A DNA stretch of 64,000 nucleotides, from the NCBI GenBank assembly GCA_024402715.1, contig JAKSTF010000002.1:14230-78229 (forward strand). Reading direction: 5' to 3'. Shown one piece after another: positions 16,776 through 60,737 of the stretch (its first letter is position 1; each line of letters begins with the position of its first letter). The notes under the pieces were generated by a model, which did not search any database, was not told the DNA's origin, and saw only the letters and a program-made list of their open reading frames with translations. This DNA comes from Alphaproteobacteria bacterium. Lineage in GTDB: Bacteria > Pseudomonadota > Alphaproteobacteria > Rs-D84. A program made the position numbers and the translations under genes.

Positions 16776-18983
16776 TTAGCTGCTTTTTACACATTTATTT
16801 TCGCTTGTTAATGTATAACCAGTGTTGCATTGGCATTTTTTGTTAGTTGAATTGTAAGTTGAATTTTCTGGGCATTTTACACATTTACCTTCGCTTAACA
16901 TATAGTTAGTGTTGCAGTCACACGTGAGGCTAGTTGAATTGAATGTTGAATTTTCTGGGCATAACAGAGATTGATAGAACATCTCAGAAATAGTTCCTAT
17001 GCATGTATCTTTTTGGTTGTCGTCGGTGGGACATGACTTTTCGTCGCCATAGAAAACCGCATACGCACATGTTAATGCAACATTTCGGCATGCCCCCTTC
17101 ATAATATTATATACACTGGATGTGGATGCCGTGTTGGACCATGTATTAACCTGGGTAACCTGTTGGTTATAACAATTTGCAACGTCGGTCATGCAACTGG
17201 ATGCATAATCTGAAACGATTTTTCGTTGCTGGGCACGAATATTTGTTAATGCCCGTTGAATATAATTTACAACAACATCATTATACTGATTATATGTATC
17301 ATCGGTATATGTATAACGTTGGCATTTATCCAAAACCGCACGACATAATCCCGAATCTGTACCGGTTGATTTTGCCCCGGTTCCAATTTTTTGTAACAGA
17401 TATTTTGTAATTAATTTCCCGTCGTCATTTGTAGTATCTGTTTCTGTTTTAGCACTTTCTAAAAAACTTTGATTGATTTTGCTGTTGTCATAGTCGTTCG
17501 TAAAGTTTATTACGTTTGAAATATTCTGACCTAAAATAACCTTGCCATTTTCGTCTATGTACTTTTTTGTCGGATCTAAACAATTTATATAGTCTTCACC
17601 GCATACCATATCATCAATCATACAATTATCCAACGCAGCGATACACCCCTTGGCATCATATGCATTTTTATTTTCCAATAATGCCAAACGGGCCTTTTGC
17701 AACATTAAATTTGCACTGCGGACATTGGATATCAGGCCTTCGTTCATTTTCTTTAAGCCCTGTTCGTATGCTATGCAATCCTTATCAATTGCCAAATCAT
17801 AATTACCGGTTATTTGTTTTGATGTTGCCCCAACATTTACACATTGTGTTAATACCGTATTACAACGTTTTTTTGCCGCATTATATAATTCGGTTCCGCG
17901 TAAATTGGAAATACTGTTACTGGTGCTGTTACCTAAAAAGTCTAAATTAAATATATCCGCCGAATCAGATGAAAAATTTAAATCCATATCCAACCCAAAC
18001 GATGTATCACTGGAATATGATGTGGAACTGGTTGGGTCTTTGATTAAATCTTCGATTTCGGTCAACATATTACGTGTTGTAGTATTGTCTTTATTTTTAT
18101 CCAATGCCAATTCAGCCTCGGTCGCATTCATAATTGCACGGATTTCATCAGCCGACAGGCCAACATAACGTATACGTTGGGCAACTTCGTTCAATTCAGC
18201 ATTTGCATCCTTAACTGCGGTTTCAACGCGGGTGTATCGTGATAAATTTCCAGAACAAGAACACCGTTTTTGATTTTGGTCAACAACCGCACAAAACTGA
18301 TCCATACATTCATTATATTGTTCTTGGCATGATTTATTTAAATCAGCGGTTTGTTCCAGACGTTCTTTGGCCTCTTTTATTGATTCTGGGGTTTGGTTGA
18401 CTGCTGCACGTGTAGAAATATTGCGAATTTCTTTATCTATGTTGGAACCGGTTTGAATGTTTGTTCCTGCAATTGTTGCACGACCGCCTACCTCAGCTGT
18501 GGTGGGACGCAGCGTTAATCCAGCCCGACGAACCGCAGGATTATTGTTGATACTGGCCTCGGTAACACGGCTGTTCCGACCAACTGTATTAACCGCAGCA
18601 TCCAAGCCAGTACGTTCATTTGAATTTTGTCCCGTTATTCCAGCACGCGATGCAGTTGACCCCGATCGGGTGGCAACGGTACCGTCGCGTTGTGTGTTGG
18701 TATTGACGTTTGATACACGTGTGCTACTGCGGGTAATTGTTTGTTTATCAACTTGCGGTGATTGTGTTATCGCACGGGCTGCAACGCGCGATGCGTTTGG
18801 TTGCATTTGATTATTTGATACAGTTCGTGCTGTAATATTCTGTGATGATTGTGCGGCCGTATGAATGTTATCATTTGATTGGTTTGTTGGTATTACGCGC
18901 GAAACCGACACCCCTCCATCAACGCCAAATGCGGATGGAACAGACAATGTGATTGCCGATAAAATCGTCACAAATTTTTTCAT
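16776..18983 (-). CDS. large secreted Cys-rich protein, paralog A (function unknown)
   Basis: 735 aa with signal peptide MKKFVTILSAITLSVPSAFG, an R/S/T/N-rich tract (about res 25-195), C-x6-C-x4-C-x9-C-x-C at res 219-243, many further C-x6-C units, and two EGF-like 29-aa repeats at the C-terminus. Confidence 0.8.
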   Translation of the reverse strand: MKKFVTILSAITLSVPSAFGVDGGVSVSRVIPTNQSNDNIHTAAQSSQNITARTVSNNQMQPNASRVAARAITQSPQVDKQTITRSSTRVSNVNTNTQRDGTVATRSGSTASRAGITGQNSNERTGLDAAVNTVGRNSRVTEASINNNPAVRRAGLTLRPTTAEVGGRATIAGTNIQTGSNIDKEIRNISTRAAVNQTPESIKEAKERLEQTADLNKSCQEQYNECMDQFCAVVDQNQKRCSCSGNLSRYTRVETAVKDANAELNEVAQRIRYVGLSADEIRAIMNATEAELALDKNKDNTTTRNMLTEIEDLIKDPTSSTSYSSDTSFGLDMDLNFSSDSADIFNLDFLGNSTSNSISNLRGTELYNAAKKRCNTVLTQCVNVGATSKQITGNYDLAIDKDCIAYEQGLKKMNEGLISNVRSANLMLQKARLALLENKNAYDAKGCIAALDNCMIDDMVCGEDYINCLDPTKKYIDENGKVILGQNISNVINFTNDYDNSKINQSFLESAKTETDTTNDDGKLITKYLLQKIGTGAKSTGTDSGLCRAVLDKCQRYTYTDDTYNQYNDVVVNYIQRALTNIRAQQRKIVSDYASSCMTDVANCYNQQVTQVNTWSNTASTSSVYNIMKGACRNVALTCAYAVFYGDEKSCPTDDNQKDTCIGTISEMFYQSLLCPENSTFNSTSLTCDCNTNYMLSEGKCVKCPENSTYNSTNKKCQCNTGYTLTSENKCVKSS

Positions 18984-19045: not shown

Positions 19046-19073
19046 TAAAAAACCGCCATATCAGTAATGGCGG
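19046..19073 (-). terminator. rho-independent terminator between 19083..20345 and paralog A
   Basis: accgccat-atcagta-atggcggt with the plus-strand A run giving a minus-strand U-run. Confidence 0.65.
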
Positions 19074-19082
19074 TGTATAACG

Positions 19083-20345
19083 CTATGGACATAATGCCAA
19101 TTGATTTAGTACATTTTGAACATCGGTGTTTACCGATACGGTAATTTCACGTTGTAAACCATCGGTATATGTATAGTAAAATTTTTGATTTTTAAATTCA
19201 GGTACTGTTTGATACACATATTTAAATGGCGCTAACATCGCTTGAAACCATTGACGACCACGACATAAACAGCCATTGCGGACATCTGCTGCGACTGCCG
19301 CAGTGGCTGTATTTGGATAATTTTTATCCAATTCATCATCTGTCATCATTAAACAGCGTGAACCAAAACCATAAAAGTTTGCATCATCAGACATGAATTT
19401 GTATATTAAATCAGGTTTTGCCCCCGCGGTGCGTAATGAATAAACCATACCGTCTGTGCAACATGCCTGTGCGGAATTCATTAACATTTTGTATCGTTCC
19501 AACAGTGGAGCGGATACAGGGGCATCTGCACGTAATTTTGAATTACACTTTGCCTTTGTTATAAATTCATTCATATTGTCGTCGCGAATTTTGGGACTGC
19601 GTGGGGATACTGTTTCACGAATAATTGGTTTGCGACGCCATATTTCGCATTCTGTTTCTGTTTCAAACGGACAACCATCGCTTGGTGCACCAAATGCATT
19701 TTTGATTACCGTGCTCATATCTTGGGCAACGTATTCTGGACGTGGTGCCGGTATAGTGATACGTTGACTAAACAATGGTTTTGAATTCGATTCGATGATT
19801 TTATCAGTTGTCCATAGACTATTTTTTGGGCGTGATGGATTTAATAAGTCTTCAACCCGTGCACGTGTTTCGGCTGCACTGTCCATTGTGTCGGCATACA
19901 TGTCTGTAATGGCAACGTTATTTGTTACGTTTGTATCGCGTAAATACAATTCGTCCATTGGTTGCAAAAACCAATCAGAAAAATCTTTATCCGTATATGA
20001 CGATATTGAATCGTCCCACAATGGTACACCATCACGCCAATCAACCGTTTTGTCGAACGCACGTGGTTTGTATACCCCAGTTGTGCCGTCCCATATGGGT
20101 GGACGATTATCTGATGGAACAGGTTTAATGGATAATAATTTTACCTGGTGCATCTGATTGGGATTTGAATGAAATGAAATTTGTGGTTGTGATGAATGGT
20201 GTGACGCACCCGATATTTGTTCGGAATCATCAAATGTATCAAACCATGTTGGAACACAATCAGGACCAATGCATTCGGATGCATTTGCATAGGAAATGTG
20301 AAATACACATAAAAGTGACGAAATAATTGCAATTTTGTTTTTCAT
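19083..20345 (-). CDS. hypothetical secreted Cys-rich protein (different family from A/B/C)
   Basis: 420 aa with signal peptide MKNKIAIISSLLCVFHISYANA. The Trp/Asp-rich N-terminal half and the C-terminal half carry 14 Cys (CIGPDC, CPFETETEC, QACCTDG, NGCLCRG, terminal LALCP). Confidence 0.7.
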   Translation of the reverse strand: MKNKIAIISSLLCVFHISYANASECIGPDCVPTWFDTFDDSEQISGASHHSSQPQISFHSNPNQMHQVKLLSIKPVPSDNRPPIWDGTTGVYKPRAFDKTVDWRDGVPLWDDSISSYTDKDFSDWFLQPMDELYLRDTNVTNNVAITDMYADTMDSAAETRARVEDLLNPSRPKNSLWTTDKIIESNSKPLFSQRITIPAPRPEYVAQDMSTVIKNAFGAPSDGCPFETETECEIWRRKPIIRETVSPRSPKIRDDNMNEFITKAKCNSKLRADAPVSAPLLERYKMLMNSAQACCTDGMVYSLRTAGAKPDLIYKFMSDDANFYGFGSRCLMMTDDELDKNYPNTATAAVAADVRNGCLCRGRQWFQAMLAPFKYVYQTVPEFKNQKFYYTYTDGLQREITVSVNTDVQNVLNQLALCP

Positions 20346-20486: not shown

Positions 20487-21386
20487 ATGAAGTTGCTATT
20501 AATTGGTGGGTTTGTTGGAGGTTTGACTGTTTTTCCTGTTTATGCCAAATATGATGACATATATGGTGGAAAAATATATGGTGAACAATACGATTTTGAA
20601 ATTGATTCGGATATTGAAACAGGTGAAAGCCCTTTTCAGGGCTTGCAATTCGGAACAGGAATATCCGGCACCAGTGGCATAAATATGTTTTTGGGGTATG
20701 CAAATAAAGATTTGCCGTCATTTTGGTTGAAACGTATTGGATTAAGATTTGATTTTGCAACAACGATCCCCGTAAAAACGACAATTAATAATGAAATAAA
20801 AAGAGCAATTGATGCGGATGGCATAGAATATGATGGCGGTTTGTTCGTTAATAACATAGGGATTTCGGCTAAACATACGGCGGCAATGATAGATTTTTAC
20901 CCGTTTGGAAACATGTGGTTTTTTGGTGGATGGCGTATAACGGGTGGATATTACAGTGGAAATTTAAAGGTAAATGCCGATTTAACGGGTGGTGGCGATT
21001 GTTTTTCCGATTCGGAAATTGAATTTGAATTATCAGAAAAAGAATATAAATATATTGGCGATGGTGTTATTGGAATTGCAAAGGCAAATTGGAAATACCG
21101 TGGACCATATTTGGGAACAGGGATTGATGTTGGTATTTTTGCTGGACTTAAAATATATATAGATGCGGGTGTTGTGTTCACAAATAAGACTGCTATGTTA
21201 AATTTTGATATTCCGGCGGTGGGGTTGCAAAAATGGGATGGGTATAGTTGGGTTGATGTTGACAGTGATACTTTGCGGGCGGAATTGGATGAAGATATCG
21301 CGGATGCGCTGGCAGATACACAATCTGATTTGGATAAAATTAACTTTTTCCCAATAGTAAAGGTTGGTTTTATGTACAGATTTTAA
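20487..21386 (+). CDS. putative outer-membrane beta-barrel protein
   Basis: Signal peptide ending VYA, alternating amphipathic Gly/aromatic-rich strands, and a C-terminal FMYRF typical of an OMP terminal strand. AAGGAGG SD. Confidence 0.6.
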   Translation: MKLLLIGGFVGGLTVFPVYAKYDDIYGGKIYGEQYDFEIDSDIETGESPFQGLQFGTGISGTSGINMFLGYANKDLPSFWLKRIGLRFDFATTIPVKTTINNEIKRAIDADGIEYDGGLFVNNIGISAKHTAAMIDFYPFGNMWFFGGWRITGGYYSGNLKVNADLTGGGDCFSDSEIEFELSEKEYKYIGDGVIGIAKANWKYRGPYLGTGIDVGIFAGLKIYIDAGVVFTNKTAMLNFDIPAVGLQKWDGYSWVDVDSDTLRAELDEDIADALADTQSDLDKINFFPIVKVGFMYRF

Positions 21387-22017: not shown

Positions 22018-23513
<1,496 letters not shown>

Positions 23514-23634
23514 ATAGAGAATACCGTTACACGAAACGGTCAAATCCAAAGCGACTGTCTGAATATCTCTTTTTGATTGGCAATTCTGGTATCAGCGGAA
23601 CTATGTCATTGTTTTTATGAAATCAGAAAATAAT

Positions 23635-23711
23635 GGGTCAGTAGTTCAGTTGGTTAGAATGTCGCTCTGATACAGCGAAGGTCGAAGATTCGAGTTCTTC
23701 CTGACCCACCA
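23635..23711 (+). tRNA. tRNA-Ile (anticodon GAU) in the 16S-23S spacer
   Basis: Perfect 7-bp acceptor GGGUCAG/CUGACCC, anticodon loop CUGAUAC, T-loop UUCGAGU, encoded CCA. Confidence 0.95.
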
Positions 23712-24008
23712 TATTTTTTTTGATGAGGTTGGAATCAGAAATGATTTTTCATTTTTGATTCCAGATGTTTCAGTAATATCTTCGGAATCTGCTTTTATGC
23801 AATATATTGTTAATCGGTTTATATGTCGCAAATCAAGATTTATAGAAATATAAGTTTGATTTGTTGAACATCGTAATCTCAAAAATCTTTCTAAAAAGAG
23901 TAATCACGAAAGTGGTAATTCAATTTAAGAAAAGCAAGAATCAACTTAAATGCTTAAAAAACTCATTAAGTGTTCTTTTTGTTGTTTGAAGACATTCTCT
24001 TCAAGCAT

Positions 24009-26765
<2,757 letters not shown>

Positions 26766-26847
26766 CGTTTGATTTTTCAAACGAATGCTTGAAGAGAACG
26801 TTGACAATTGATTCTGAAAGTTGTATTATGATGTTCGCTGGATTTAT

Positions 26848-26961
26848 TCTGGTGATTATTGAGCGGGAGTCACCCTCTGTTCCATTCCGAACCAGACAGG
26901 GAAACCCCGTATCGCCGATGGTACTTTGGCTTAAGCCACGGAAGAGTAGGTCGTCGCCAGA
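26848..26961 (+). rRNA. rrf: 5S ribosomal RNA
   Basis: ctggtga...ccattccgaaccagacagggaaac...gatggtactttgg...tcgccag with a terminal helix I. Confidence 0.9.
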
Positions 26962-26998
26962 GTAAATCCAGTTTGTTGGATATATAAACCGAGTTTAT

Positions 26999-27020
26999 AC
27001 CGCCCTTGTGGCGGTTTTTT
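26999..27020 (+). terminator. rRNA operon terminator
   Basis: accgcc-cttgt-ggcggt followed by T6. Confidence 0.75.
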
Positions 27021-27074
27021 GCTGGAATTTTTGTGAAGTGAGAATGTAGCAATTAATTAAAAGATGGAAAAAAC

Positions 27075-27722
27075 ATGAAAGAACAGCATATTGTTAATAT
27101 TTTATCTGATGTTTTAAGGGTGTTGTGTTGCGTTAATACAACGGTTCGTATTGGAAAAATATGGACGAAATTATATTCAAAAGACGGTGATTTATATCGT
27201 TTGACATCAGAAGGTCAATACTGGCCAAATTTAGATATAAAAAATAAAGAAAATTACAATATACCATTTTCAACAATTGGTAATACCGGATATGGTTCAA
27301 TGTTTATGAATGGATCTAATGCAGTTAATTGGGATTTGGGTGGTGGTATATATGTTCAACGTGATAAATTTGAAATGGTATATATTATACATACGCCAAA
27401 TGGTCAATGTAAAGACACCGATTTGACCAAAGAATTACGTGCAGATTTTCATATAATTATGTCTGCAATTATTGCAAAAACACCTGTCAATTGTTTCGGA
27501 ATGGAATGGAACAGGTTAAAAAAACGTAATAATTATACAATGGGCTTGCAAAACAAGACATTGAAAATGGTTGCATATGAAATATTAAATGATAATCGCA
27601 TACATCGTCGCAGAAAACACAGCAAATATAAAATTGCAAAAAATAATCTTAATAGTTTGGGGATAAAAGAAACGCCGCGCTTGGATGCGTTGATTGCGCA
27701 GATGAAATCAAAAAACAAATAA
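27075..27722 (+). CDS. hypothetical protein, related to 28529..29431
   Basis: 215 aa. N-terminus HIVNILSDVLRVL and C-terminus LGIKETPRLDALIAQMKSK match motifs in the 28529 ORF. No known domain recognised. Confidence 0.55.
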   Translation: MKEQHIVNILSDVLRVLCCVNTTVRIGKIWTKLYSKDGDLYRLTSEGQYWPNLDIKNKENYNIPFSTIGNTGYGSMFMNGSNAVNWDLGGGIYVQRDKFEMVYIIHTPNGQCKDTDLTKELRADFHIIMSAIIAKTPVNCFGMEWNRLKKRNNYTMGLQNKTLKMVAYEILNDNRIHRRRKHSKYKIAKNNLNSLGIKETPRLDALIAQMKSKNK

Positions 27723-28178
27723 TTTGTTTTTGTCTTTTTTGTATTGCTGCCCCCTTTGGAATGGGGGTAGGCTTATTGTATACTTTTGAATACGATTGCA
27801 TTAACCCATCCTGTCAAATTCTGTACATTTGAGTACAAAACGTTTATATGTTATTCTTTGTTGTTTTGTGTTTATTACATGCGGAAATCATTTACAATAC
27901 TAAAAAATTGTATAATTTTGGTTTGTTCAGAACGTTTTTGACAGAATTTGAACAAACGTTTTGTTATTTTATTGGTGTAGATTCTGATGAAACCACCAAA
28001 AATTTTAAAAATTACGTCCTGTAAAAAATATTTGGCGATATGTATTCTTTTATATGCTTAATTCCAGTAATTTACAGACGTTTTTAATTAAAAAATCTAC
28101 CTTTCATAAAGGTATAGATAAAAATTGACATTAAATATTTTTGTGTTAATTTAAATATGCTTGATAAAGGAATTTAAA

Positions 28179-28469
28179 ATGAAAAAAGTATTTGGTTTGT
28201 TTATATTGTGTATCTTACCGTCTGTGGTTGATGCTGAATATATTCGTAAAACCGGTGATGGGGTATATGAATTTTATGTTGACGATTGCTCGATTGATTC
28301 GATGAAACAGGCATTGGATTGGGCAACAGTTGCGCAACGTGCAATGATTACAACGGTTAAATGTGAATATAAACCGCATTTTGATTATTCGGTTATTACA
28401 CTTGTTGATGAATACATTTTGTATGAAAAAAAATACACAATTATTAATCAAAAGCAGTTGATAAAATAA
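28179..28469 (+). CDS. small hypothetical secreted protein
   Basis: Signal peptide MKKVFGLFILCILPSVVDA from the ATG at 28179. Confidence 0.5.
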   Translation: MKKVFGLFILCILPSVVDAEYIRKTGDGVYEFYVDDCSIDSMKQALDWATVAQRAMITTVKCEYKPHFDYSVITLVDEYILYEKKYTIINQKQLIK

Positions 28470-28528
28470 TGTATTTGTAGTATATTTCTGTAGAAGTTGT
28501 GTGATGGTTGGAATAGGAGATTATTAGA

Positions 28529-29431
28529 ATGTATTTTCATACGGATAAGCAGATTTTATTATTTAATGATGTTATACATGCATTGTTAAATAAAAATGTT
28601 CGTGTACATGAAACGAAGATTGCTGGTGTAAAAAATAGCAAGATATTTGAATTGGATAAAGGAAAAATCTCAGTTGGATATTCTGATCATAGATATTTTA
28701 TTAACACCCCCGCTGGCCAAGATTTTTTTGAATGGCTTGATCCTAATTTTTTTGGAATATGGCAAGCCGCAGAGCTTAAAACAAAAAAGTCGGACAGAAT
28801 TAGAAATGTGTTGTTAAATTTTTTTGATGATGCCTCTTTAAAAAATATTGTTAGTGAATGTACGGATAAAAAATATTTAAAAATGGTGGCAGAAGAAAGT
28901 AGAGATAAATTTACGAATGTGCAAATTTTAGTGTTGTCGGATGTTATTCGTTCGTTAACGGATGAAAATGCTAAGGCTCGTTATGAAAAGATAGATGGCC
29001 GAGTACCTAAACATATAGATAATTATTTGTCAGGTACGCTTGTGTGGTCTGCAATTAATTTAGATGGTGGAATATCGATAAAAATTATTCCAGACCACAA
29101 AATTCTTATAAGAACCCAAAGTGGTGAAGCGATATTTGATCGTAAAAATAGAGATTTGAATATGTATATTTTGAATGCAATAGGTCGAAAAATAGCGTTG
29201 TGTCATGGTAATAGTATAAGTGTAAATAAAGATTATCTATCTGTTTTGTCCGACAATTTACGAGATGAAAGGTTGCGTAAAGTATTAGAAGAATGTTTGA
29301 CAAATAAAAAAAATTTATTTGATAAGTCGTCTGTTTTTAAAAAATCAATAGACAGGGTTGAAAGGTTAGGGGTATTAAAACATTCTCGTTTGGATGATAT
29401 GATTGATTATAAAAAAAATACTCGAATATAA
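28529..29431 (+). CDS. hypothetical protein with an internal two-fold duplication
   Basis: 300 aa. Residues about 8-120 and 131-262 repeat (QILLFNDVIHALL../QILVLSDVIRSLT.. and NVLLNFFDDASLKNIVSECTDKK/SVLSDNLRDERLRKVLEECLTNKK). GGAG SD. Confidence 0.6.
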   Translation: MYFHTDKQILLFNDVIHALLNKNVRVHETKIAGVKNSKIFELDKGKISVGYSDHRYFINTPAGQDFFEWLDPNFFGIWQAAELKTKKSDRIRNVLLNFFDDASLKNIVSECTDKKYLKMVAEESRDKFTNVQILVLSDVIRSLTDENAKARYEKIDGRVPKHIDNYLSGTLVWSAINLDGGISIKIIPDHKILIRTQSGEAIFDRKNRDLNMYILNAIGRKIALCHGNSISVNKDYLSVLSDNLRDERLRKVLEECLTNKKNLFDKSSVFKKSIDRVERLGVLKHSRLDDMIDYKKNTRI

Positions 29432-29525
29432 AAGATTAAAAACGCCATTAGTTTGGCTTTTTAATTTGTTGACATAATATGTATTTTATTCTGCAAATGG
29501 TAATATGCCGGGTTGTGGTTAATTT

Positions 29526-30017
29526 TTATATGTGTACACCTAAAAAATATTGAGCAAATTGCCCGATAAAAAATGCAATTATGGAAATCCCCACGCATAC
29601 AAACAGCATTTCAATAAATCTTGGTAAAAATTTTGTGTGATTTAATTTTGACGCCCAAATATTAAAGAATGTTATAATAAGCACGGCCATTATAAATGTT
29701 GATAATGTTGCAAAAAGTCGGTTGTATATAAATATAAATGGTAATATTAGTAATAGACATGTTGTAAAATATGCTGCACCGGTATAAATGGCTGTGCGTA
29801 ATGCGTTAGGATTACGTTCGGCACGATGTGCTAAATAGTTTGATGCCCCCATTGATAAACTGGCGGTAACAGATGCAATTATGCATGTTAATACAATTTC
29901 AATTCGTGATACAGATGTAAATGCCAAACCTATAATTAAGCCGGTTAATGATACAATGGCATCGTGCATTCCCAAAACCAGGGCACCTGTGCGATTAAAA
30001 TTTGGCGTTTGTGACAT
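29526..30017 (-). CDS. VIT1/CCC1-family membrane protein (putative Fe/Mn transporter)
   Basis: 163 aa with LVLGMHDAIVSLTGLIIGLA, matching the VIT-family GxxDGxxSxxxLxxG-type helix. Four to five TM segments. Confidence 0.6.
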   Translation of the reverse strand: MSQTPNFNRTGALVLGMHDAIVSLTGLIIGLAFTSVSRIEIVLTCIIASVTASLSMGASNYLAHRAERNPNALRTAIYTGAAYFTTCLLLILPFIFIYNRLFATLSTFIMAVLIITFFNIWASKLNHTKFLPRFIEMLFVCVGISIIAFFIGQFAQYFLGVHI

Positions 30018-32630: not shown

Positions 32631-32767
32631 TTAATTACCCGCATTTTATGCGGGTTTTCTTGTTTACAGATATTGTAAAAAATGGTATAATACCAACACA
32701 TGGGCGTATTGTTTTTTGTATTAAATTAATTGCAAAAGCATATTTAGCCCCCACAGGGAGAGTATTT

Positions 32768-34978
32768 ATGAAAAAACATAATGGCACAGAAATTTGTAAA
32801 AATGCGGTTGGAACAATGTTTCTGCTGGCAAGTGCATTTTTTGTTTGTTCTACGTTATTATCGATGCGGTCAGTGTTGGCGGATCCGATTGCACCGGTGA
32901 ATGCAACTAACCAACCAACGGGAAATATGTCACCACGTGTCAACGCTACACGTCGCAATACGGCGACTGTACGTACGACAACCAACAACAGGGTTGTGAA
33001 TTCTGGTGGCAATCGGACGACGTCGTCTGTTGCGGGGCGTGGTGTTGCATCGCGTAACCAAATGCCTGCGACACGTTCAACGAATATCACAAACACCCCC
33101 ACGGGAACAACAACTGCACGTGGTGTTTCAACGCGCAGCAGAACAAATATTGCGGGCCGTAGTAATGCAGCAACAACGGTTTCTGCATCTGGGGGACGTT
33201 CAGTTCGTGCCCGTACAGGGGTAAATTCACGGACAACCCAGTCGCGTATTTCATTGCAGGGTACGGCCATTCGTGGCAGTTCAACGGGTATAACAAATAA
33301 TTATACGTATTTGCAGGGGAAATTGTATGCCGGTAATTATTCAAATATTATTGATTCGCAAACCGGTTTGATTTCAGCAGATGCATATTCCACGTGTTTA
33401 GAGGCATATTATACATGTATGGATGAAATCTGTACGGCGCGCAATGCCGCACAACGTCGTTGTGCGTGTGCGGGACGTGTTAAAGCATTTGCAGAAGCTG
33501 AAACGGCACTTGAAACGGCAAATGAAGAATTGATAAAGGTGTCGGGTGAATTGGCATTATTGGTTGCCAATAAAGGAAAGGATGTCAGCAGTGCATTCCA
33601 ATTAACCGATGCTGAAAAAGTTATGAATTGTGTTTCATGGCAAGAAATGGCTGATAGGTATAAAGGAGGTTATACCCAAATATATAAAAAAGATGGTTCT
33701 TATTCGAAGAGCGGATCCGGTGAAGGTTATGTGGATGCTGGTACTTATTGGTGTGAAGCACATGGTTTATACGATAGTGGAAAGTGTTCTGGGGAAAAAG
33801 AACCAAACTATTGTAAGAAAGCTGGAAATACATTTGGGTTTGATATAGCGAATATCGACGGTAATTCCAGTGATATTATGGCGTCGCTGAAATCATGGGC
33901 AGAGGCTAAGGAGTCAACACTAACGATATTAACAGAGAATACAGAAAACTTATCTAAAGTATTTAGTGGTTTATCCAATGTTGTTTCCAATATGTCGGGT
34001 ATAAGTGGTTCGTTAAATAATTCTGACTCTTTACAGGATAGTTTGGCTAAAACATGGGGGTATGATTTGTTTGCGTATGCACATAATAATGTATGCAGTC
34101 GTGTCTTGGATTCGTGTTTTAATGGTATATACGAAGGTTGTGGTACACCACCCAGTGGTGGTAAATGTGCCAATGGTAATACGTCAAATTGTCCATATAA
34201 TTATAACAGTAAAATTAACGTATCATCCGCGGGCGATATAACATTGGTTGAACGTGGTACAAACAGTAATTCGGTTAATGTCAGTGCAACGTGTTTTGGT
34301 TATACATCTGCATCCGGTGATCCGTATGCATCATTGCGGGGGCCGGTTGCGGATGCCCGTCGCAGTGTTATGAATAAATATTTGTTAGATGCAAATGCCG
34401 ATTGTGATGCGTATGGCGAACAATTACGAACAACCGCACAAAATATAGGTTATCAAAAGGTTGCCGCACAACAGGCATTACAACAAAAGCGGTTGGAATT
34501 TGTTCAGGAAGCAGAACAGACAATCGCAACAGAATTTGCCGCGGCCCGCAGTAACTTTAATGAATGTTTGTCTGAATTATATGATTGTTATACGGATACC
34601 GCTGAAACAAATAAAAATTGGTCGGCATCACGTATAAAAACGTATTGTCAACAGGTTGCAAATGTTCCACATTGTTATGAAACAATGGTGTGTGAGGCGC
34701 CAAATAATAAATTGGCGGCGGTTATTACACGTGATGTAGATAATAAGGAGGATACGATGTGCGACAATTCTGAAACATATGAAAAGAACACCTGTCGCAA
34801 TGTTATAACATTAAATGAAATTTTGAGTCCTTCATATGCTGACAAAGGAAATGGTGCCGCAAAAAAGCGTGAAGAATGTTTACAACAGATTGGGATAAAC
34901 GGTGTACGTAAGTGGGATAAAGGTGATACTTCTGAGAAAGCCTCTTGGCCTGATAATGACGAAGATTTGACTGAATAA
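32768..34978 (+). CDS. large secreted Cys-rich protein, paralog B (function unknown)
   Basis: About 736 aa from the ATG at 32768 (GGGAGAG SD). Signal peptide ..SMRSVLA, R/S/T/N-rich tract (res about 40-175), and C-x6-C-x4-C-x9-C-x-C at res 210-234, the same spacing and position as paralog A. Confidence 0.8.
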   Translation: MKKHNGTEICKNAVGTMFLLASAFFVCSTLLSMRSVLADPIAPVNATNQPTGNMSPRVNATRRNTATVRTTTNNRVVNSGGNRTTSSVAGRGVASRNQMPATRSTNITNTPTGTTTARGVSTRSRTNIAGRSNAATTVSASGGRSVRARTGVNSRTTQSRISLQGTAIRGSSTGITNNYTYLQGKLYAGNYSNIIDSQTGLISADAYSTCLEAYYTCMDEICTARNAAQRRCACAGRVKAFAEAETALETANEELIKVSGELALLVANKGKDVSSAFQLTDAEKVMNCVSWQEMADRYKGGYTQIYKKDGSYSKSGSGEGYVDAGTYWCEAHGLYDSGKCSGEKEPNYCKKAGNTFGFDIANIDGNSSDIMASLKSWAEAKESTLTILTENTENLSKVFSGLSNVVSNMSGISGSLNNSDSLQDSLAKTWGYDLFAYAHNNVCSRVLDSCFNGIYEGCGTPPSGGKCANGNTSNCPYNYNSKINVSSAGDITLVERGTNSNSVNVSATCFGYTSASGDPYASLRGPVADARRSVMNKYLLDANADCDAYGEQLRTTAQNIGYQKVAAQQALQQKRLEFVQEAEQTIATEFAAARSNFNECLSELYDCYTDTAETNKNWSASRIKTYCQQVANVPHCYETMVCEAPNNKLAAVITRDVDNKEDTMCDNSETYEKNTCRNVITLNEILSPSYADKGNGAAKKREECLQQIGINGVRKWDKGDTSEKASWPDNDEDLTE

Positions 34979-50843: not shown

Positions 50844-53800
50844 ATGTTTTTTATGAAAAAAACTGTTAGTTTTCTGGCGTTTATGGCATGTTTTTCAAGT
50901 GTATTTGCTGTAACGGCACGGCCCAGTGTTGTGACAACTGTGGCATCGCGTTCAAACATGCCAAATTTTATAAACCCAAATAATCAGTTTAAATATACCA
51001 CCACAAATGGGCGTCCTGCCACGACGGTTACAACGACGGTGACGGGGACTACAAATTTGATGGATAATGCAGAATGCATCGACGCATATACCGAATGTAT
51101 AACCGCGGATGACGTATGTGGTGCAAATTTCGAAGAATGCACGACAACCGAATTATTTCATGGCCAAATGGCAAAATGTTCCAGTACATTATACCAATGC
51201 AAATCGGATGGTATTACCGCATTGTTTGGGACAAATTCTGTGACCGCGTTGGGTGCTGTAACCAACGGTACCGCCGGTAAAGAGGGTGCAACCTATACAT
51301 ATCCAACGGTTACCAGTATTATGGGACAACGTGTTGCGGGTGGTGCGATTTCGAATCGGTATGATACATCACAATGTGTAAAAAAATATACAAATTGTGT
51401 TCACAAAGATACCGTATGTGGTCCCGATTTTGAATTGTGTACAGGTATAAAAGAATTTAAAAAGCAAATGTCATTTTGTGCATCGACATTGGTCCGTTGC
51501 CCCAAAGAGGGTATAATTGCCCTGTTTGGACAAGATATTGATATAAACGATGATGGTTCGTTAAAGAGTAACACAAACGGAATTAAATTGGATGGTAAAG
51601 ACAGTCGTATTGGTCAAATGATTGATGACGGTGCGGCATTGGCGGCGAAAAACGCTGTTAATACCTGTTACAAGGTTGTAGACAGTTGTATTATTAGTGC
51701 CTGTAAAGATAATCCGTTCAAATGTAAGACCGATGTGTTTGTTTCTTTGACAGATGCAGTGGAACAGATAGAAAACAATTCTGAATATAATAGTTTGGCG
51801 GAAAAATATAATTCTTTGTTGAAACAAGAGTATTCATCGGATGTAACAACAAATAAAACGGTAGAAAAGTATATACGAAGCAAATGTTTGGATACAATTG
51901 GTGGTAATAAATATTGTCAATTGGTTGTTAAAGGGACGGCTAGTGCCAAACAAATTATAGATCCAGAAGAATTGGCTGATGATTATACAGAAGTTTTTGA
52001 TGATTTGTATAATGCACGTATGAATGCAGCGGCACATGAAAAAATTAATACATTGGCGGAACAATTTGATACCAAGGCCAAAAATAAATGCTATGAAACG
52101 ATTAAATCATGTGCAATGCGTTCGTGTGGTAATGGTAACGGTGCGGCATGTTATGCATCCGTATTTGGTACAGATGGTGTTACAAATGGCAGCATAAATG
52201 GAACAAAGTCATACAGCAATATTCAGGCTGGGTGCGAGGCAATCGTTAACACCGATCCGTATTGCATTTATTCAAAGGTTGACGAAAGTGGTAAAGGCAT
52301 AACATCAGATACGTTAAATACGTATGCGGATTCTTCTGCGTTTGAAATATTATTCCCAGCCTATGATGGTACAACAAAATCTGATCCGATTGGGGCGGTT
52401 GCAAAATTAAATGCGTCACTGTCATCGGCATTTAATGCATCGGCAATTGCACAAAAACGTAAACAGTGCATTAAGACCGCACAAAATTGTGTAAAATCAA
52501 TGTGTGGGGATGATTATGAAAATTGTTATCGTAATCGTACAGATGCTATGTCTAAGATCACAAGCACAAGTAAAAACGATTATAATGAAAGTATGAACAG
52601 GGTTGGTGGTGTATTGGATCGTACAATTGTTGTCGGTTTGTGTATGAATACGGTAAGAGATAGTGCAGCTTGCGAAGATCATTTGGCAATTAAATTGGCG
52701 GAAATATCTGCAACATATGCAAATAAAAATGCCGCAGACAGTTGGGGAAACAGCACAACAGTTCGTAATGGTTGGTTGGGTGCAGGTGCCTCGGATGGGG
52801 CAGAATATGATGAAAATGAAGCAAAGGAAGAGACGTCCGAAGAAAAAGCGGCTGAAAATTTATTTGCTGAAATTTTGGATGATATTGAAGTAGAAGTCCA
52901 GGCAAAATATAACGCAAAATTGACCAAGGAACAGAACGTTTGTTTGAAAAATAATGGTGGGGTCAGCGGTATTGATTCTGGAACATATATGTGGGCCAAA
53001 TTAAAAAATGGCAAGGTTCCGGATGGTTATTCAACAAATGGTTTGGTTGACACGGATTTGAGTGCATCAAATGATTTGTATGGTTCATTCTGTCGTGTGC
53101 GTGTTACAATGACATCAACCGATCCAAAGATTAAAAAATTCTTGGAAGGCAATTCTGCAAAAGCAACGCGGTATTTTGCGGTTGGTGATGCATTTGTCTG
53201 TGGATCATGGTTAACATCGCAGGATAAAGATGGAGAAGATGGAGAAGATGGAGATAGTGATCTTACTAAAATTGAAAAACTTGTGAAAGGTGATGTTATA
53301 TCCAGTTCCACAGAAAAACGTCAGGAAAGAAATAAAGTAATGGCGACGGCGATATCCGCTTTGGCTGGTGGTGTTGGTGGTGGCGTATTGGGTAATAAAA
53401 TCGGAAACGGTGATATTTTACCAAATTTGACCAGTAATAAGGCTGATAACAAAAAAATAAGTGACTGTAATAATTATGTAAATTACTTAAGTGGGGTTAG
53501 CAAAGACTCGTTACGTACTATCGTGGAATCTCGGTTGGATGCGTTGAACAAGCTTAATTCAGGATTTGGCGTAAAGTCTGAATGGGCAAACTTAGATAGT
53601 AGTTGTGCTAATAATAATAATAATAATAATATTACTGAGTGTGCTGCGAATCTTATTAAAGATGCCATGAATGGAATTAAATGTTCCAGTCTTGCTGAAC
53701 AAAAAGGTGTATTTAAAGGTAAATTAACTGGTGCACAATTTGGTACGGCCATTGGGGCAGCGGTTGGTTCGTTTGGGGCTGGTTTCGCCGCGTATAAAAT

Positions 53801-53951
53801 AGCGGATTCTAGCCAGCAAATAAAGAATGCTGAAGCCAAAGATGCCGCATGGGAAGAATTTATGGCGGAAATCGGTTCCAAAATCCGGTGCTATATCGGC
53901 ACGACCGAGGCCGGCGGTTACGGTGATACGGTAATGTTAACCGTTGAATAA
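50844..53951 (+). CDS. very large secreted Cys-rich protein, relative C (function unknown)
   Basis: About 1035 aa with signal peptide MFFMKKTVSFLAFMACFSSVFA and a short T/R-rich tract. Contains a duplicated six-Cys module, further C-x6-C-x4-C units, an acidic DGEDGEDGD stretch, an Asn7 run, and two Gly-zipper hydrophobic segments near the C-terminus. Confidence 0.8.
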   Translation: MFFMKKTVSFLAFMACFSSVFAVTARPSVVTTVASRSNMPNFINPNNQFKYTTTNGRPATTVTTTVTGTTNLMDNAECIDAYTECITADDVCGANFEECTTTELFHGQMAKCSSTLYQCKSDGITALFGTNSVTALGAVTNGTAGKEGATYTYPTVTSIMGQRVAGGAISNRYDTSQCVKKYTNCVHKDTVCGPDFELCTGIKEFKKQMSFCASTLVRCPKEGIIALFGQDIDINDDGSLKSNTNGIKLDGKDSRIGQMIDDGAALAAKNAVNTCYKVVDSCIISACKDNPFKCKTDVFVSLTDAVEQIENNSEYNSLAEKYNSLLKQEYSSDVTTNKTVEKYIRSKCLDTIGGNKYCQLVVKGTASAKQIIDPEELADDYTEVFDDLYNARMNAAAHEKINTLAEQFDTKAKNKCYETIKSCAMRSCGNGNGAACYASVFGTDGVTNGSINGTKSYSNIQAGCEAIVNTDPYCIYSKVDESGKGITSDTLNTYADSSAFEILFPAYDGTTKSDPIGAVAKLNASLSSAFNASAIAQKRKQCIKTAQNCVKSMCGDDYENCYRNRTDAMSKITSTSKNDYNESMNRVGGVLDRTIVVGLCMNTVRDSAACEDHLAIKLAEISATYANKNAADSWGNSTTVRNGWLGAGASDGAEYDENEAKEETSEEKAAENLFAEILDDIEVEVQAKYNAKLTKEQNVCLKNNGGVSGIDSGTYMWAKLKNGKVPDGYSTNGLVDTDLSASNDLYGSFCRVRVTMTSTDPKIKKFLEGNSAKATRYFAVGDAFVCGSWLTSQDKDGEDGEDGDSDLTKIEKLVKGDVISSSTEKRQERNKVMATAISALAGGVGGGVLGNKIGNGDILPNLTSNKADNKKISDCNNYVNYLSGVSKDSLRTIVESRLDALNKLNSGFGVKSEWANLDSSCANNNNNNNITECAANLIKDAMNGIKCSSLAEQKGVFKGKLTGAQFGTAIGAAVGSFGAGFAAYKIADSSQQIKNAEAKDAAWEEFMAEIGSKIRCYIGTTEAGGYGDTVMLTVE

Positions 53952-53952
53952 T

Positions 53953-53980
53953 AAAAAATCCCCCAATTGGGGGATTTTTT
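53953..53980 (+). terminator. rho-independent (bidirectional) terminator
   Basis: aaaaaatccccc-aatt-gggggatttttt. Confidence 0.8.
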
Positions 53981-56798: not shown

Positions 56799-56804
56799 TT
56801 TATT

Positions 56805-59413: not shown

Positions 59414-59415
59414 TG

Positions 59416-60675: not shown

Positions 60676-60696
60676 ATTTGTATATTTTTTATCAAT

Positions 60697-60726
60697 TATA
60701 TCACATTTAAGGCAAAATGTGATATA
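60697..60726. promoter_or_regulatory. perfect 12-bp-arm palindrome in the M4/M5 divergent promoter region
   Basis: tatatcacattt-aaggca-aaatgtgatata, centred in the 62-bp gap between the M4 start (60675) and the M5 start (60738). Confidence 0.7.
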
Positions 60727-60737
60727 CTTTAACATAA

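What the first reader, a model, noticed from the sequence alone, without database searches (positions are those of the whole stretch)
16776..18983. Dispersed family of giant secreted Cys-rich proteins with identical architecture (A here, B at 32768..34978, larger relative C at 50844..53951)
A and B are both about 735 aa. Each has a signal peptide followed by a ~150-aa Arg/Ser/Thr/Asn-rich tract. At the same distance from the N-terminus, each then has an identically spaced motif, C-x6-C-x4-C-x9-C-x-C (A: SCQEQYNECMDQFCAVVDQNQKRCSC; B: TCLEAYYTCMDEICTARNAAQRRCAC). A coiled-coil-like stretch follows, and then many more C-x6-C units. In A these are CNTVLTQC, CIAALDNCMIDDMVCGEDYINC, CRAVLDKC, CMTDVANC and CRNVALTC. 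In B they are CSRVLDSC and CLSELYDC. C uses the same C-x6-C logic. I cannot place this module in any named domain family. More than 2500 codons in three loci within 64 kb is a heavy investment for an AT-rich, apparently compact genome. That suggests a surface or host/prey-interaction function dependent on disulfide chemistry.
Basis: partly seen in the sequence, partly recalled or inferred. Interest (0 to 1): 0.8.

Follow-up and report, generated by a model that had tools for sequence, protein, structure and literature searches.

The report
Disulfide-stapled helical envelope proteins of Enterousia
Three large exported proteins of an uncultured, tiny-genome gut bacterium (Candidatus Enterousia) belong to a conserved, unnamed protein family whose helices appear to be pinned together by many paired cysteines; their job is unknown, but they look like core cell-envelope or surface parts.

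Summary
A (16776-18983, minus strand, 735 aa), B (32768-34978, 736 aa) and C (50844-53951, 1035 aa) are real, separately transcribed genes. Each has a signal peptide and 28, 24 and 38 mature cysteines. C-x6-C spacing is far above chance in A (8 vs 1.0) and C (13 vs 1.4), and marginal in B (3 vs 0.9).

The host is Candidatus Enterousia (order Rs-D84), a gut alphaproteobacterium with a fermentative genome under 1 Mb. Each protein has about 900-1200 matching database clusters; the best 120 are near full-length. Cysteines are essentially invariant, and their number is even in 119/120, 120/120 and 111/120 orthologs although counts vary. That strongly indicates disulfides.

"Identical architecture" is overstated. 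A and B share the Arg-rich tail plus a ~70-aa Cys module. A and C share only a ~30-aa C-x6-C-x6-C-x6-C motif. B and C show no detectable homology.

Pfam, NCBIfam, PHROGs and PDB sequence searches find nothing. A confident AlphaFold model of A (pLDDT 86) is a long-helix core with EGF-like C-terminal hairpins and no Foldseek match. A and B evolve about as slowly as housekeeping genes. Relatives add surface-type repeats at the C-terminus. B sits just upstream of A in 26/70 species.

Best reading: disulfide-stapled envelope or surface scaffold proteins. Function is unproven.

The parts
16776..18983 (-). Gene A, 735 aa. Layout: signal peptide, Arg/Thr/Asn/Ser-rich tail, Cys-stapled helical core, then two 4-Cys EGF-like hairpin repeats.
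   Evidence: ORF. More than 1000 homologs, about 60% identical over full length. 21 invariant Cys. AlphaFold model of residues 196-735 has pLDDT 85.8.
18924..18983 (-). A signal peptide, residues 1-20 (MKKFVTILSAITLSVPSAFG).
   Evidence: The only hydrophobic 19-mer in A is at the N-terminus. An AFG/AFA site is conserved in orthologs. No signal-peptide predictor was available.
18384..18923 (-). A cationic tract, residues 21-200, predicted disordered. Residues ~113-200 form a strongly conserved sub-segment.
   Evidence: Composition and net charge +9. pLDDT below 50. 78-86% identity in the bins covering residues 126-175.
18255..18329 (-). A module I: C-x6-C-x4-C-x9-C-x-C, residues 219-243.
   Evidence: Shared with B: hhalign 97.6% probability; module HMM E = 8.5e-32 for A and 1.9e-23 for B.
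17580..17645 (-). A module II: C-x6-C-x6-C-x6-C, residues 447-468.
   Evidence: An HMM built from A-family sequences only hits C twice, at iE = 2e-07 and 2.6e-05.
17841..17864 (-). A C-x6-C dyad at residues 374-381. Further dyads lie at 17322-17345, 17172-17195 and 17067-17090.
   Evidence: These Cys are at least 90% conserved across 141 relatives with identity down to about 30%.
16791..16961 (-). Two C-terminal 4-Cys repeats (CPENSTxNST..CxCNxxY..C), residues 675-731. They are beta-hairpin, EGF/ephrin-receptor-like, and their copy number varies between orthologs.
   Evidence: Beta strands in the model. Only local, non-significant Foldseek similarity: Pfs25 and EphA2 CRD (E = 1.8 and 2.9), ephrin-receptor-like giant-virus proteins (E = 0.35-2.2). 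Sub-threshold Pfam EGF hits. Variable copy number.
32768..34978 (+). Gene B, 736 aa. Layout: long signal peptide or anchor, Arg-rich tract, module I, then a Cys-containing body not detectably homologous to A.
   Evidence: ORF. 100% identical to an NCBI 'hypothetical protein MJ187_00995'. 23 of 24 mature Cys are invariant.
32768..32881 (+). B signal peptide or anchor, residues 1-38. It is unusually conserved among orthologs.
   Evidence: Hydropathy. Invariant columns K11 to P43.
32882..33352 (+). B cationic tract, residues 39-195, net charge +19.
33395..33469 (+). B module I: C-x6-C-x4-C-x9-C-x-C, residues 210-234.
32663..32691 (+). Promoter-like site for B (TTTACA-17-TATAAT with an upstream TG), just after a terminator-like hairpin at 32637-32655.
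   Evidence: This is a consensus match only.
50844..53951 (+). Gene C, 1035 aa. Layout: signal peptide, short Thr-rich linker, two module II units, three C-x6-C-x4-C-x6/7-C + C-x9-C units, an acidic region, then two Gly-zipper-like hydrophobic segments and a conserved C-terminal tail.
   Evidence: ORF. 860 homologs, about 42% identical over full length. Cys invariant. Spacing analysis.
51075..51200 (+). C module II copy 1 (C-x6-C-x6-C-x6-C-x12-C-x6-C), residues 78-119. Copy 2 lies at 51375-51500, residues 178-219.
51666..51725 (+). C C-x6-C-x4-C-x6-C unit, residues 275-294. Further units lie at 52089-52151 and 52467-52526. They share the spacing pattern of module I but are not detectably homologous to it.
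   Evidence: The module I HMM does not hit C.
53340..53405 (+). C glycine-zipper-like segment 1, residues 833-854. Segment 2 lies at 53730-53804, residues 963-987.
   Evidence: Weak PF05433 hit, E = 0.069. Hydropathy peak at residue 831. Conserved G-rich columns.
53959..53973 (+). Terminator-like hairpin directly after the stop codon of C.
19052..19074 (-). Terminator-like hairpin between gene D (19083-20345) and A, so A is its own transcription unit.

Best explanation
A, B and C are lineage-specific, Sec-exported cell-envelope proteins of Candidatus Enterousia (order Rs-D84). Their long alpha-helices are locked together by disulfide 'staples'.

In a C-x6-C dyad the two thiols sit two helical turns apart on the same face. 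That is too far apart to bond each other, but well placed to bond a matching dyad on a neighbouring helix. A therefore folds into a rigid, protease-resistant helical core of about 10 disulfides.

This core carries two other parts. At the C-terminus is a variable number of small 4-Cys EGF/ephrin-receptor-like hairpin modules; in relatives there are also Listeria-Bacteroides repeats. At the N-terminus is an Arg-rich, acid-poor, disordered tail, which I infer tethers the protein to an anionic envelope component (LPS or peptidoglycan) or to a conserved partner.

B is a distant paralog of A, sharing the tail and Cys module I. C shares only Cys module II and probably anchors through C-terminal glycine-zipper segments. 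One copy of each is present per genome and they are often adjacent. They most likely act together as a core structural or surface scaffold of this partner-dependent bacterium, with the variable C-termini facing outward.

Shown: the genes, the motif statistics, Cys invariance and even parity, family breadth, lack of any known homolog or fold, slow evolution, synteny, and C-terminal variability.

Inferred: export, the exact disulfide pairing, the tether role of the tail, surface exposure, and co-assembly.
For: - Organism and lifestyle. The loci carry Candidatus Enterousia or gut Alphaproteobacteria titles. Rs-D84 genomes are under 1 Mb, fermentative, lack respiratory chains and are proposed to be partner-dependent (PMC12306168).
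- Motif statistics are given.
- Cys conservation. 21 Cys are invariant in 18 A orthologs. 18 core Cys are at least 90% conserved in 141 relatives with identity down to about 30%. The same holds for B and C.
- Parity. Cys counts are even in 119/120 A, 120/120 B and 111/120 C orthologs, and in 111/127 divergent representatives, while counts range from 24 to 48 (up to 120 in relatives). An even-number bias is an accepted indicator of disulfide formation (PMC2823432).
- Structure. The deep-alignment AlphaFold model has pLDDT 85.8 and pTM 0.67. The C-x6-C dyads lie in or at the ends of long helices, and beta hairpins form the C-terminus.
- No homolog or fold match.
- Family size. 685 clusters at 50% identity have E <= 1e-3. 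275 species genomes encode a relative.
- Evolutionary rate. A and B are 56-62% identical between species that share 59-60% identity in TruB, 66-68% in RecF, 70-71% in MutS and 68% in Skp. Most 25-aa bins of A's core are 70-87% identical to the window protein.
- C-terminal variability and surface-type domains. Flg_new occurs in 7/27 long relatives (best E = 6.9e-41) and Ephrin_rec_like in 2/27. One B-family relative carries CPL1-like above Pfam's cut-off and cEGF just below it.
- Linkage. B lies upstream of A on the same strand in 26/70 loci, and C directly downstream of A in 2/79. A, B and C orthologs appear to share contigs, judged from equal contig lengths.
- Tail composition. The tails use Arg rather than Lys in an AT-rich genome.
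Against: - No signal-peptide, topology or localisation predictor, and no experiment, was available.
- No known outer-membrane anchor or secretion signal (beta-barrel, lipobox, T1SS or T5SS signal) is present, so surface exposure is conjecture.
- The organism is an anaerobic fermenter without a respiratory chain, and no Dsb-type oxidase was seen in the roughly 64 kb inspected. How about 45 disulfides would be formed is therefore unexplained.
- The very slow evolution of the core is atypical for exposed adhesins.
- B has only 3 C-x6-C dyads, and B and C are not detectably related, so 'one system' rests mainly on synteny and co-occurrence.
Confidence: 0.45

Rival explanations
1. They are purely periplasmic structural proteins that are never surface-exposed. 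The Arg-rich tail binds peptidoglycan or the inner leaflet of the outer membrane. The rigid disulfide-stapled helices act as a periplasmic scaffold or spacer that compensates for envelope functions lost during genome reduction.
For: There is a Sec-type N-terminus but no recognisable outer-membrane translocation or anchoring device. Conservation is at housekeeping level. The neighbours are envelope-biogenesis genes: MreB, PagL, Skp, a Pal-like protein, a BepA-like protease and LpxD. C has glycine-zipper segments like those of outer-membrane lipoproteins, though the hit is weak (E = 0.069).
Against: C-termini of family members are extended by repeat types typical of extracellular or surface proteins (Flg_new, Ephrin_rec_like, cEGF, CPL1-like), and their copy number varies between species. 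That is hard to explain for a buried periplasmic scaffold.
Confidence: 0.25
2. They are released effectors or toxins aimed at a eukaryotic or bacterial partner cell. The EGF/ephrin-receptor-like modules would mimic host ligands, and the Arg-rich tail would act as a translocation or cell-penetrating segment.
For: The modules look eukaryote-like. A partner-dependent lifestyle has been proposed. Pseudopilin-like genes in the window could belong to a type II secretion system, which exports folded, disulfide-bonded proteins (the property of type II secretion is from general knowledge).
Against: The genes are single-copy, present in essentially all species examined across very different animal hosts, and evolve as slowly as housekeeping genes. 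No immunity or chaperone gene is linked. No toxin or enzyme domain was found.
Confidence: 0.1
3. The cysteines are not in disulfides. Instead they bind metals or act as a thiol redox buffer in the anaerobic gut.
For: The organism is an anaerobic fermenter with no respiratory chain, so no obvious quinone is available to drive DsbB or VKOR. No Dsb gene was seen in the window.
Against: Strict even parity across hundreds of relatives despite changing counts. Cysteines at positions i and i+7 on one helix are about 10 Å apart and cannot chelate the same ion (helix geometry). No CxxC or CxxCH-type metal motifs occur in A, B or C. The C-terminal 4-Cys hairpins match disulfide-knotted EGF-like modules only weakly.
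Confidence: 0.07
4. They are not a system at all: three unrelated Cys-rich hypothetical proteins whose shared spacing is convergent or coincidental.
For: B and C show no detectable homology (hhalign probability 1.5%). A and C match by hhalign at only 42%. B's C-x6-C excess is marginal.
Against: A-B homology is significant. The module II HMM built from A alone hits C at E = 4.7e-10. No other ORF in the window matches either profile. B-A adjacency recurs in 26/70 species and A-C adjacency in 2/79.
Confidence: 0.05

Closest known systems
Chlamydial cysteine-rich outer-membrane-complex proteins (OmcB/OmcA; from general knowledge, not tested by a paper here)
   Same: Sec-exported, Cys-rich envelope proteins of a host-dependent bacterium with a reduced genome. 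Disulfide bonding is thought to give the envelope mechanical stability.
   Different: There is no sequence relationship: no Pfam family, including the chlamydial ones, matches above E = 0.01. A is alpha-helical, whereas OmcB is built from beta-rich repeats. The Cys spacing differs. Intermolecular cross-linking has not been shown for A, B or C.
Helicobacter cysteine-rich proteins (HcpB/HcpC, Sel1-like repeat family)
   Same: Secreted helical-repeat proteins in which regularly spaced cysteine pairs form disulfides that lock neighbouring helices (PMC3851747).
   Different: No Sel1 or TPR Pfam hit and no Foldseek hit to 1KLX/1OUV-type folds. There is no 36-aa repeat periodicity. In Hcp, each closely spaced pair bonds across a helix-helix turn. 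Here, many dyads lie within continuous long helices, so they must pair with other helices.
Twin Cx9C / twin Cx3C helix-hairpin proteins of the mitochondrial intermembrane space (CHCH fold; general knowledge)
   Same: The same structural logic: two cysteines a whole number of helical turns apart on one helix, disulfide-bonded to a matching pair on the antiparallel helix.
   Different: The spacing is 6 rather than 3 or 9. A, B and C are 735-1035 aa multi-helix bacterial exported proteins, not ~10-kDa eukaryotic proteins. There is no homology.
EGF-like / ephrin-receptor-like cysteine-rich repeats (Pfam EGF families, PF07699, PF12662)
   Same: The C-terminal CPxNST..CxCNxGY..C units of A are ~28-aa, 4-Cys beta hairpins. 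Local Foldseek similarity to Pfs25, EphA2 CRD and ephrin-receptor-like viral proteins is not significant (E = 0.35-2.9). Relatives reach Pfam significance for Ephrin_rec_like, and one comes just under the cut-off for cEGF.
   Different: This applies only to the last ~60 residues of A. A's own Pfam scores are below threshold (E = 0.14-0.48). The conserved helical core has no counterpart in these families.
Glycine zipper 2TM domain (Rickettsia 17-kDa antigen / SlyB-type outer-membrane lipoproteins, PF05433)
   Same: C has two conserved G-x3-G-rich hydrophobic segments near its C-terminus.
   Different: The score is 13.5 bits against a cut-off of 24.2. C has no lipobox. This covers only a small part of C and is absent from A and B.

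Membership tests
Disulfide-bonded exported proteins (operational class) | Even number of cysteines in the mature protein, maintained across relatives | tested here: met
   A has 28, B 24 and C 38 mature Cys. Orthologs are even in 119/120, 120/120 and 111/120 cases despite variable counts. The criterion comes from PMC2823432.
Disulfide-bonded exported proteins (operational class) | N-terminal Sec signal peptide | tested here: inconclusive
   A basic N-terminus, a single N-terminal hydrophobic segment and an AxA-like site are seen by eye and by hydropathy. No dedicated predictor was available.
Disulfide-bonded exported proteins (operational class) | A disulfide-forming pathway (DsbA/DsbB, VKOR or equivalent) in the genome | not testable with these tools
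   Only the 64-kb window and short flanks of related loci could be read, and none was seen there. Whole genomes could not be fetched.
Chlamydial cysteine-rich OMPs (OmcB-type) | Match to the family's Pfam models; beta-rich repeat fold | tested here: not met
   No such Pfam hit at E <= 1. The AlphaFold model is mainly helical.
Helicobacter Hcp / Sel1-like repeat proteins | Tandem ~36-aa Sel1-like alpha/alpha repeats (Pfam Sel1) cross-linked by disulfides | tested here: not met
   No Sel1 or TPR hit in A, B or C. No SLR structure appears among the Foldseek hits.
EGF-like / ephrin-receptor-like Cys-rich repeats (C-terminus of A only) | Small beta-hairpin module with a conserved 4-6 Cys pattern, scoring above Pfam thresholds | tested here: inconclusive
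   A's own hits are sub-threshold (EGF_MSP1_1 E = 0.14; Pvs28 EGF E = 0.48). Beta hairpins are present in the model. Local Foldseek probabilities are 0.57-0.95. Relatives give Ephrin_rec_like at E = 2.2e-6 (above Pfam's cut-off not stated) and cEGF at E = 1.4e-5, 25.2 bits against a cut-off of 26.6.
Twin CxnC helix-hairpin (CHCH-like) proteins | Two Cx9C (or Cx3C) motifs in a single helix-turn-helix of about 60-100 aa | tested here: not met
   The spacing spectrum shows a peak at x6, not x9 or x3. The proteins are 735-1035 aa.
Type V (autotransporter) or other known Gram-negative surface adhesins | C-terminal beta-barrel translocator or other recognised anchor or secretion domain | tested here: not met
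   No such Pfam or NCBIfam domain in A, B or C, nor in the 36 long A- and B-family relatives scanned.
Glycine zipper 2TM (PF05433) - C only | Score above the Pfam gathering threshold (24.2 bits) | tested here: inconclusive
   13.5 bits, E = 0.069 at residues 837-856. The G-rich columns are conserved in orthologs.
Phage structural or tail proteins | Match to a PHROG family or a BFVD structure | tested here: not met
   No PHROG hit. The best BFVD E-value is 0.03 with a TM-score of 0.10.

The most novel reading that the evidence does not exclude
A, B and C are the building blocks of a previously undescribed, disulfide-cross-linked envelope or attachment structure. It is built on a new 'twin C-x6-C' helical-staple fold and is a core trait of the whole Rs-D84 order. 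Because these bacteria are strict fermenters without a respiratory chain or quinone pool, its roughly 45 disulfides per protein set would be made by a non-canonical oxidative-folding route. A candidate is the conserved tandem cluster of polytopic membrane paralogs with invariant N-terminal CxxC motifs (window 55488-62693), which lies next to A or C in several genomes.
Probability: 0.15. Interest if true: 0.8.

Novelty: new variant of a known kind. Interest (0 to 1): 0.6.

Why it matters
Rs-D84/Enterousia are widespread, uncultured gut bacteria found in humans (especially non-industrialised populations), ruminants, horses and poultry. Their genomes are below 1 Mb, and how they live, probably attached to or dependent on other cells, is unknown.

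A, B and C together take up about 0.8% of the genome. They are present in essentially every species sampled and are conserved like housekeeping genes, yet they match nothing known in sequence or fold. They are therefore prime candidates for the envelope or contact machinery that defines this lifestyle.

They also pose a clean biochemical question: how does a quinone-less anaerobe make dozens of structural disulfides? In addition, they offer a new, confidently modelled helical fold for structural study, and possible lineage-specific markers or antigens.

Tried and rejected
- Known-family searches. Pfam, NCBIfam and PHROGs on A, B, C and neighbour D gave only sub-threshold noise.
- PDB sequence profile searches with the three family alignments found nothing meaningful.
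- First AlphaFold run. With an 18-sequence alignment the model was poor (pLDDT 51) and was discarded. The 100-row alignment worked.
- Foldseek against PDB and BFVD gave no hit at E <= 1e-3. The top hits are generic long-helix proteins with TM-scores around 0.1-0.3 and were rejected as meaningless.
- Model coordinates are not exposed, so Cys-Cys distances and the disulfide map could not be extracted.
- Search for a Dsb pathway. There is none in the window. Extending the source contig with two look-ups gave only short Logan contigs and no thioredoxin-fold genes. The supplements of the Rs-D84 paper are not held. This is not evidence of absence.
- Homology of C's C-x6-C-x4-C units to module I of A and B is not detectable, so it is kept as a pattern resemblance only.
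- Literature searches on Enterousia and Rs-D84 found no paper describing these proteins.
- The membrane-protein cluster was tested as VirB6/TrbL or DsbB/VKOR. There was no Pfam, NCBIfam or PDB support even at E <= 10.
- Parity of Cys in other exported proteins of the window: the sample is too small and the result mixed (D appears to have 11), so it was not used.
Full report
**What is there**

The three ORFs exist as described.
- A: 16776-18983, on the minus strand, 735 aa.
- B: 32768-34978, plus strand, 736 aa.
- C: 50844-53951, plus strand, 1035 aa.

For B, a longer ORF begins at 32648. However, a terminator-like hairpin (32637-32655) and an 11/12 promoter-like site (32663-32691) lie in front of the ATG at 32768. 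A is separated from its upstream neighbour D by a terminator-like hairpin, and C is followed by one. The three therefore look like independent transcription units.

**Is it more than chance?**

I compared the C-x6-C count with 20,000 shuffles of each protein.
- A has 8 C-x6-C pairs against a mean of 1.0; no shuffle reached this.
- C has 13 against 1.4; no shuffle reached this.
- B has 3 against 0.9 (P = 0.05).

In A and C the spacing spectrum has a single sharp peak at x6. Mature cysteine counts are 28, 24 and 38, all even.

C is internally repetitive. It has two copies of C-x6-C-x6-C-x6-C-x12-C-x6-C and three copies of C-x6-C-x4-C-x6/7-C, each followed by a C-x9-C.

The N-terminal tracts of A and B are strongly cationic, with net charges of +9 and +19. 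They use Arg almost exclusively (18-19 Arg, 1-2 Lys). The rest of each protein is acidic and prefers Lys. This points to selection for arginine in an AT-rich genome.

**Whose genes are these?**

The window carries a bacterial rRNA operon. Loci encoding relatives of A come from MAGs titled Candidatus Enterousia, or uncultured Alphaproteobacteria or Rickettsiales, from human, chicken, ruminant and other guts. 275 species genomes in the GTDB-based collection encode a relative.

B is 100% identical to an NCBI 'hypothetical protein' from an alphaproteobacterial MAG.

Enterousia and its order Rs-D84 have genomes below 1 Mb. They are fermentative, lack the TCA cycle and respiratory chains, and are proposed to depend on partner cells (PMC12306168). 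No paper found describes these proteins.

**Conservation**

- A has 1003 matching database clusters at E <= 0.001, B has 1191 and C has 860. None carries a name or, with one exception, a Pfam domain. In the best 120 listed, A and B are about 55-62% identical over nearly the full length, and C is about 40-48% identical over 76-100% of its length.
- An exhaustive HMMER search with the A profile finds 685 clusters (at 50% identity) at E <= 1e-3 and 225 at E <= 1e-30.
- In 18 A orthologs, 21 cysteines are invariant.
- In 141 relatives with identity down to about 30%, all 18 cysteines between residues 219 and 639 are at least 90% conserved.
- B keeps 23 of its 24 mature Cys invariant. C keeps its N-terminal 30 or so invariant.

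The number of cysteines after the first motif is even in 119/120 A, 120/120 B and 111/120 C orthologs, and in 111/127 divergent representatives. Meanwhile counts range from 24 to 48, and up to 120 in long relatives. Cysteines are therefore gained and lost in pairs, which is the accepted signature of disulfide bonding (PMC2823432).

**Are A, B and C one family?**

Only partly.
- A-B: BLASTP gives 31% identity over 85 residues (E = 3e-11). hhalign gives 97.6% probability over 57 columns. A deep A-family profile hits B at E = 1.9e-23 across the Arg-rich tract, Cys module I and the following helices.
- A-C: a 35-residue HMM of A's C-x6-C-x6-C-x6-C motif, built from A-family sequences alone, hits C at E = 4.7e-10 with two good copies and one weak one. 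Whole-profile hhalign gives only 42%.
- B-C: not detectably related.
- No other ORF in the window matches any of these profiles.

A therefore bridges B and C, and 'identical architecture' applies only to the N-terminal ~290 residues of A and B.

**Structure**

A shallow alignment gave a useless model (pLDDT 51). A 100-sequence alignment of residues 196-735 of A gave pLDDT 85.8 and pTM 0.67.

The model is a set of long helices, including helices of 33, 50 and 47 residues, followed by eight short beta strands that form the two C-terminal 4-Cys repeats. Several C-x6-C dyads lie inside continuous helices. Examples are C219/C226 in the first helix and C597/C604 in the 47-residue helix.

Two cysteines seven residues apart on one helix are about 10 Å apart on the same face. 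They cannot bond each other, but they are ideally placed to bond a matching dyad on a neighbouring helix (helix geometry; inference).

Foldseek finds no match at E <= 1e-3 in the PDB (best E = 0.5, TM-scores around 0.1-0.3) or in BFVD. Only the C-terminal hairpins resemble EGF or ephrin-receptor cysteine-rich modules locally.

**Evolutionary behaviour and context**

Between the same pairs of genomes, A and B are 56-62% identical over the full length. This compares with 59-60% for TruB, 66-68% for RecF, 70-71% for MutS, 68% for Skp and 87% for AccC. Most 25-aa bins of A's core are 70-87% identical to the window protein across the 17 aligned orthologs. The far N-terminus and the C-terminus are variable.

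The C-terminus is where the family varies.
- Orthologs carry from none or a degenerate copy to about six CPxNST..CxCNxGY..C repeats.
- 7 of 27 long relatives carry Listeria-Bacteroides (Flg_new) repeats (best E = 6.9e-41).
- 2 of 27 carry Ephrin_rec_like domains.
- One B-family relative (P0274) carries a CPL1-like domain and a cEGF match just under Pfam's cut-off.

These are all extracellular or surface-type modules.

In related genomes the genes are often adjacent. B lies upstream of A on the same strand in 26 of 70 loci with enough flank, typically with rplU and rpmA between them. C lies directly downstream of A in 2 of 79 loci. The dispersed arrangement in this window is therefore one of several.

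**Interpretation**

The best-supported reading has four parts, applying in full to A:
- Sec-exported proteins with a rigid, disulfide-stapled helical core.
- A cationic, disordered N-terminal tail. It includes a highly conserved segment, so it probably binds a conserved partner or envelope polymer.
- A variable, outward-facing C-terminus.
- A role as core envelope or surface scaffold proteins of this partner-dependent lineage.

B shares the first two parts; C shares only the disulfide-rich core.

A strictly periplasmic scaffold is the main rival. It has in its favour the absence of any recognisable outer-membrane anchor and the slow evolution. Against it are the surface-type C-terminal additions. 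Effector, metal-binding and 'unrelated proteins' readings are less likely, for the reasons given in the rival entries.

The biggest open problem is how an anaerobe without a respiratory chain would oxidise about 45 cysteine pairs. I could not scan whole genomes for Dsb or VKOR genes.

**Comparison with known systems**

The proteins work like other disulfide-stabilised envelope or secreted proteins of host-associated bacteria. These include the chlamydial OmcB/OmcA (general knowledge) and the Helicobacter Hcp proteins, whose helical repeats are cross-linked by disulfides (PMC3851747). The staple logic resembles the twin-CxnC hairpins of mitochondria.

Membership in each of these families was tested and not met. 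Only the last ~60 residues of A can be tentatively assigned to the EGF/ephrin-receptor-like repeat class.

**Verdict**

This is a real, statistically solid and very widespread protein family. It is unnamed and, by the PDB and BFVD searches done here, structurally unmatched. There is strong indirect evidence for extensive disulfide bonding. Function and location remain inferred.

I rate it a new variant of a known kind (Cys-rich envelope or surface proteins of reduced-genome symbionts), with interest 0.6.

Noticed in passing
window 55488-62693 (genes 55488-56798 -, 56805-58238 -, 58235-59413 -, 59416-60807 -, 60738-62693 +): A tandem cluster of five polytopic membrane proteins (392-651 aa) with no Pfam, NCBIfam or PDB match. 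The 392-aa and 651-aa proteins are paralogs (BLASTP E = 1.6e-11). Three of the five carry an N-terminal CxxC (CWGC, CWSC, CFLC) that is kept in orthologs at 46-62% identity. The cluster, or at least its 436- and 477-aa genes, lies close to the A ortholog in five related loci, and next to C here. It could be a set of VirB6-like channel paralogs or a membrane thiol oxidoreductase system. This is unresolved.
   Followed up: partly
window 42292-42753 (-) and 44918-48769 (+): Four genes whose N-termini look like prepilin cleavage and methylation motifs (G|RSLIEL, G|NFLLQA, G|SSMTEV, G|NMLIEL). Three of them are unusually large for pilins, at 403-452 aa. Only the small one gets a weak N_methyl Pfam hit. 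This suggests a type II secretion or type IV pilus-like system in this reduced genome, which could export folded, disulfide-bonded proteins.
   Followed up: partly
window 19083-20345 (-): Gene D encodes 420 aa with a signal peptide and 12 Cys. It has no Pfam, NCBIfam or PHROG hit and is not related to A, B or C. It lies next to the A ortholog in four related loci, usually together with the 299-aa secreted protein encoded at 20487-21386. A terminator-like hairpin separates D from A.
   Followed up: partly
window 32187-32630 (+): A small secreted 147-aa protein with 4 mature Cys lies immediately upstream of B. It has a weak hit to the eukaryote-type 'Cysteine rich repeat' (Cys_rich_FGFR, PF00839; E = 0.0034, below the cut-off). 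Its ortholog sits directly upstream of A in L072 and L084.
   Followed up: no
window 32798-32896 (B residues 11-43): The signal-peptide or anchor region of B (KNAVGT.FLLAGAFFVCSTLLSMR.V.ADPIAP) is almost invariant across orthologs that are only ~60% identical overall. That is unusual for a cleaved signal peptide. It may be a retained membrane anchor or a recognition element.
   Followed up: partly
window 27000-30000: A low-GC stretch (30% in 28001-30000, against about 38-40% elsewhere) lies just downstream of the rRNA operon. It contains two unannotated ORFs (27075-27722 and 28529-29431). It may be a foreign insertion.
   Followed up: no
window 54258-55253 (-): A RhuM-family/Fic-domain gene sits between C and the membrane-protein cluster. 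A Fic gene and prophage genes (terminase, ParB-methylase) also flank the 2338-aa A-family relative in L085.
   Followed up: no
window 22018-26962: In the rRNA operon, ARAGORN and Rfam find only tRNA-Ile (23635-23711) in the 16S-23S spacer. There is no tRNA-Ala, which is usual in alphaproteobacterial operons.
   Followed up: no
L010; P0279 and P0397: Orthologs of A, B and C occur in public bins labelled 'Bacteroides fragilis' and 'Muribaculaceae bacterium'. These contigs look mis-binned or mislabelled, because everything else points to Enterousia.
   Followed up: no
L001: The exact A protein is recorded on a 2208-bp NCBI record that is exactly the length of the gene. It belongs to assembly GCA_024500515.1, whose accession numbering runs above 11 million records. 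This looks like a gene-catalogue-style deposit rather than a genome contig.
   Followed up: no
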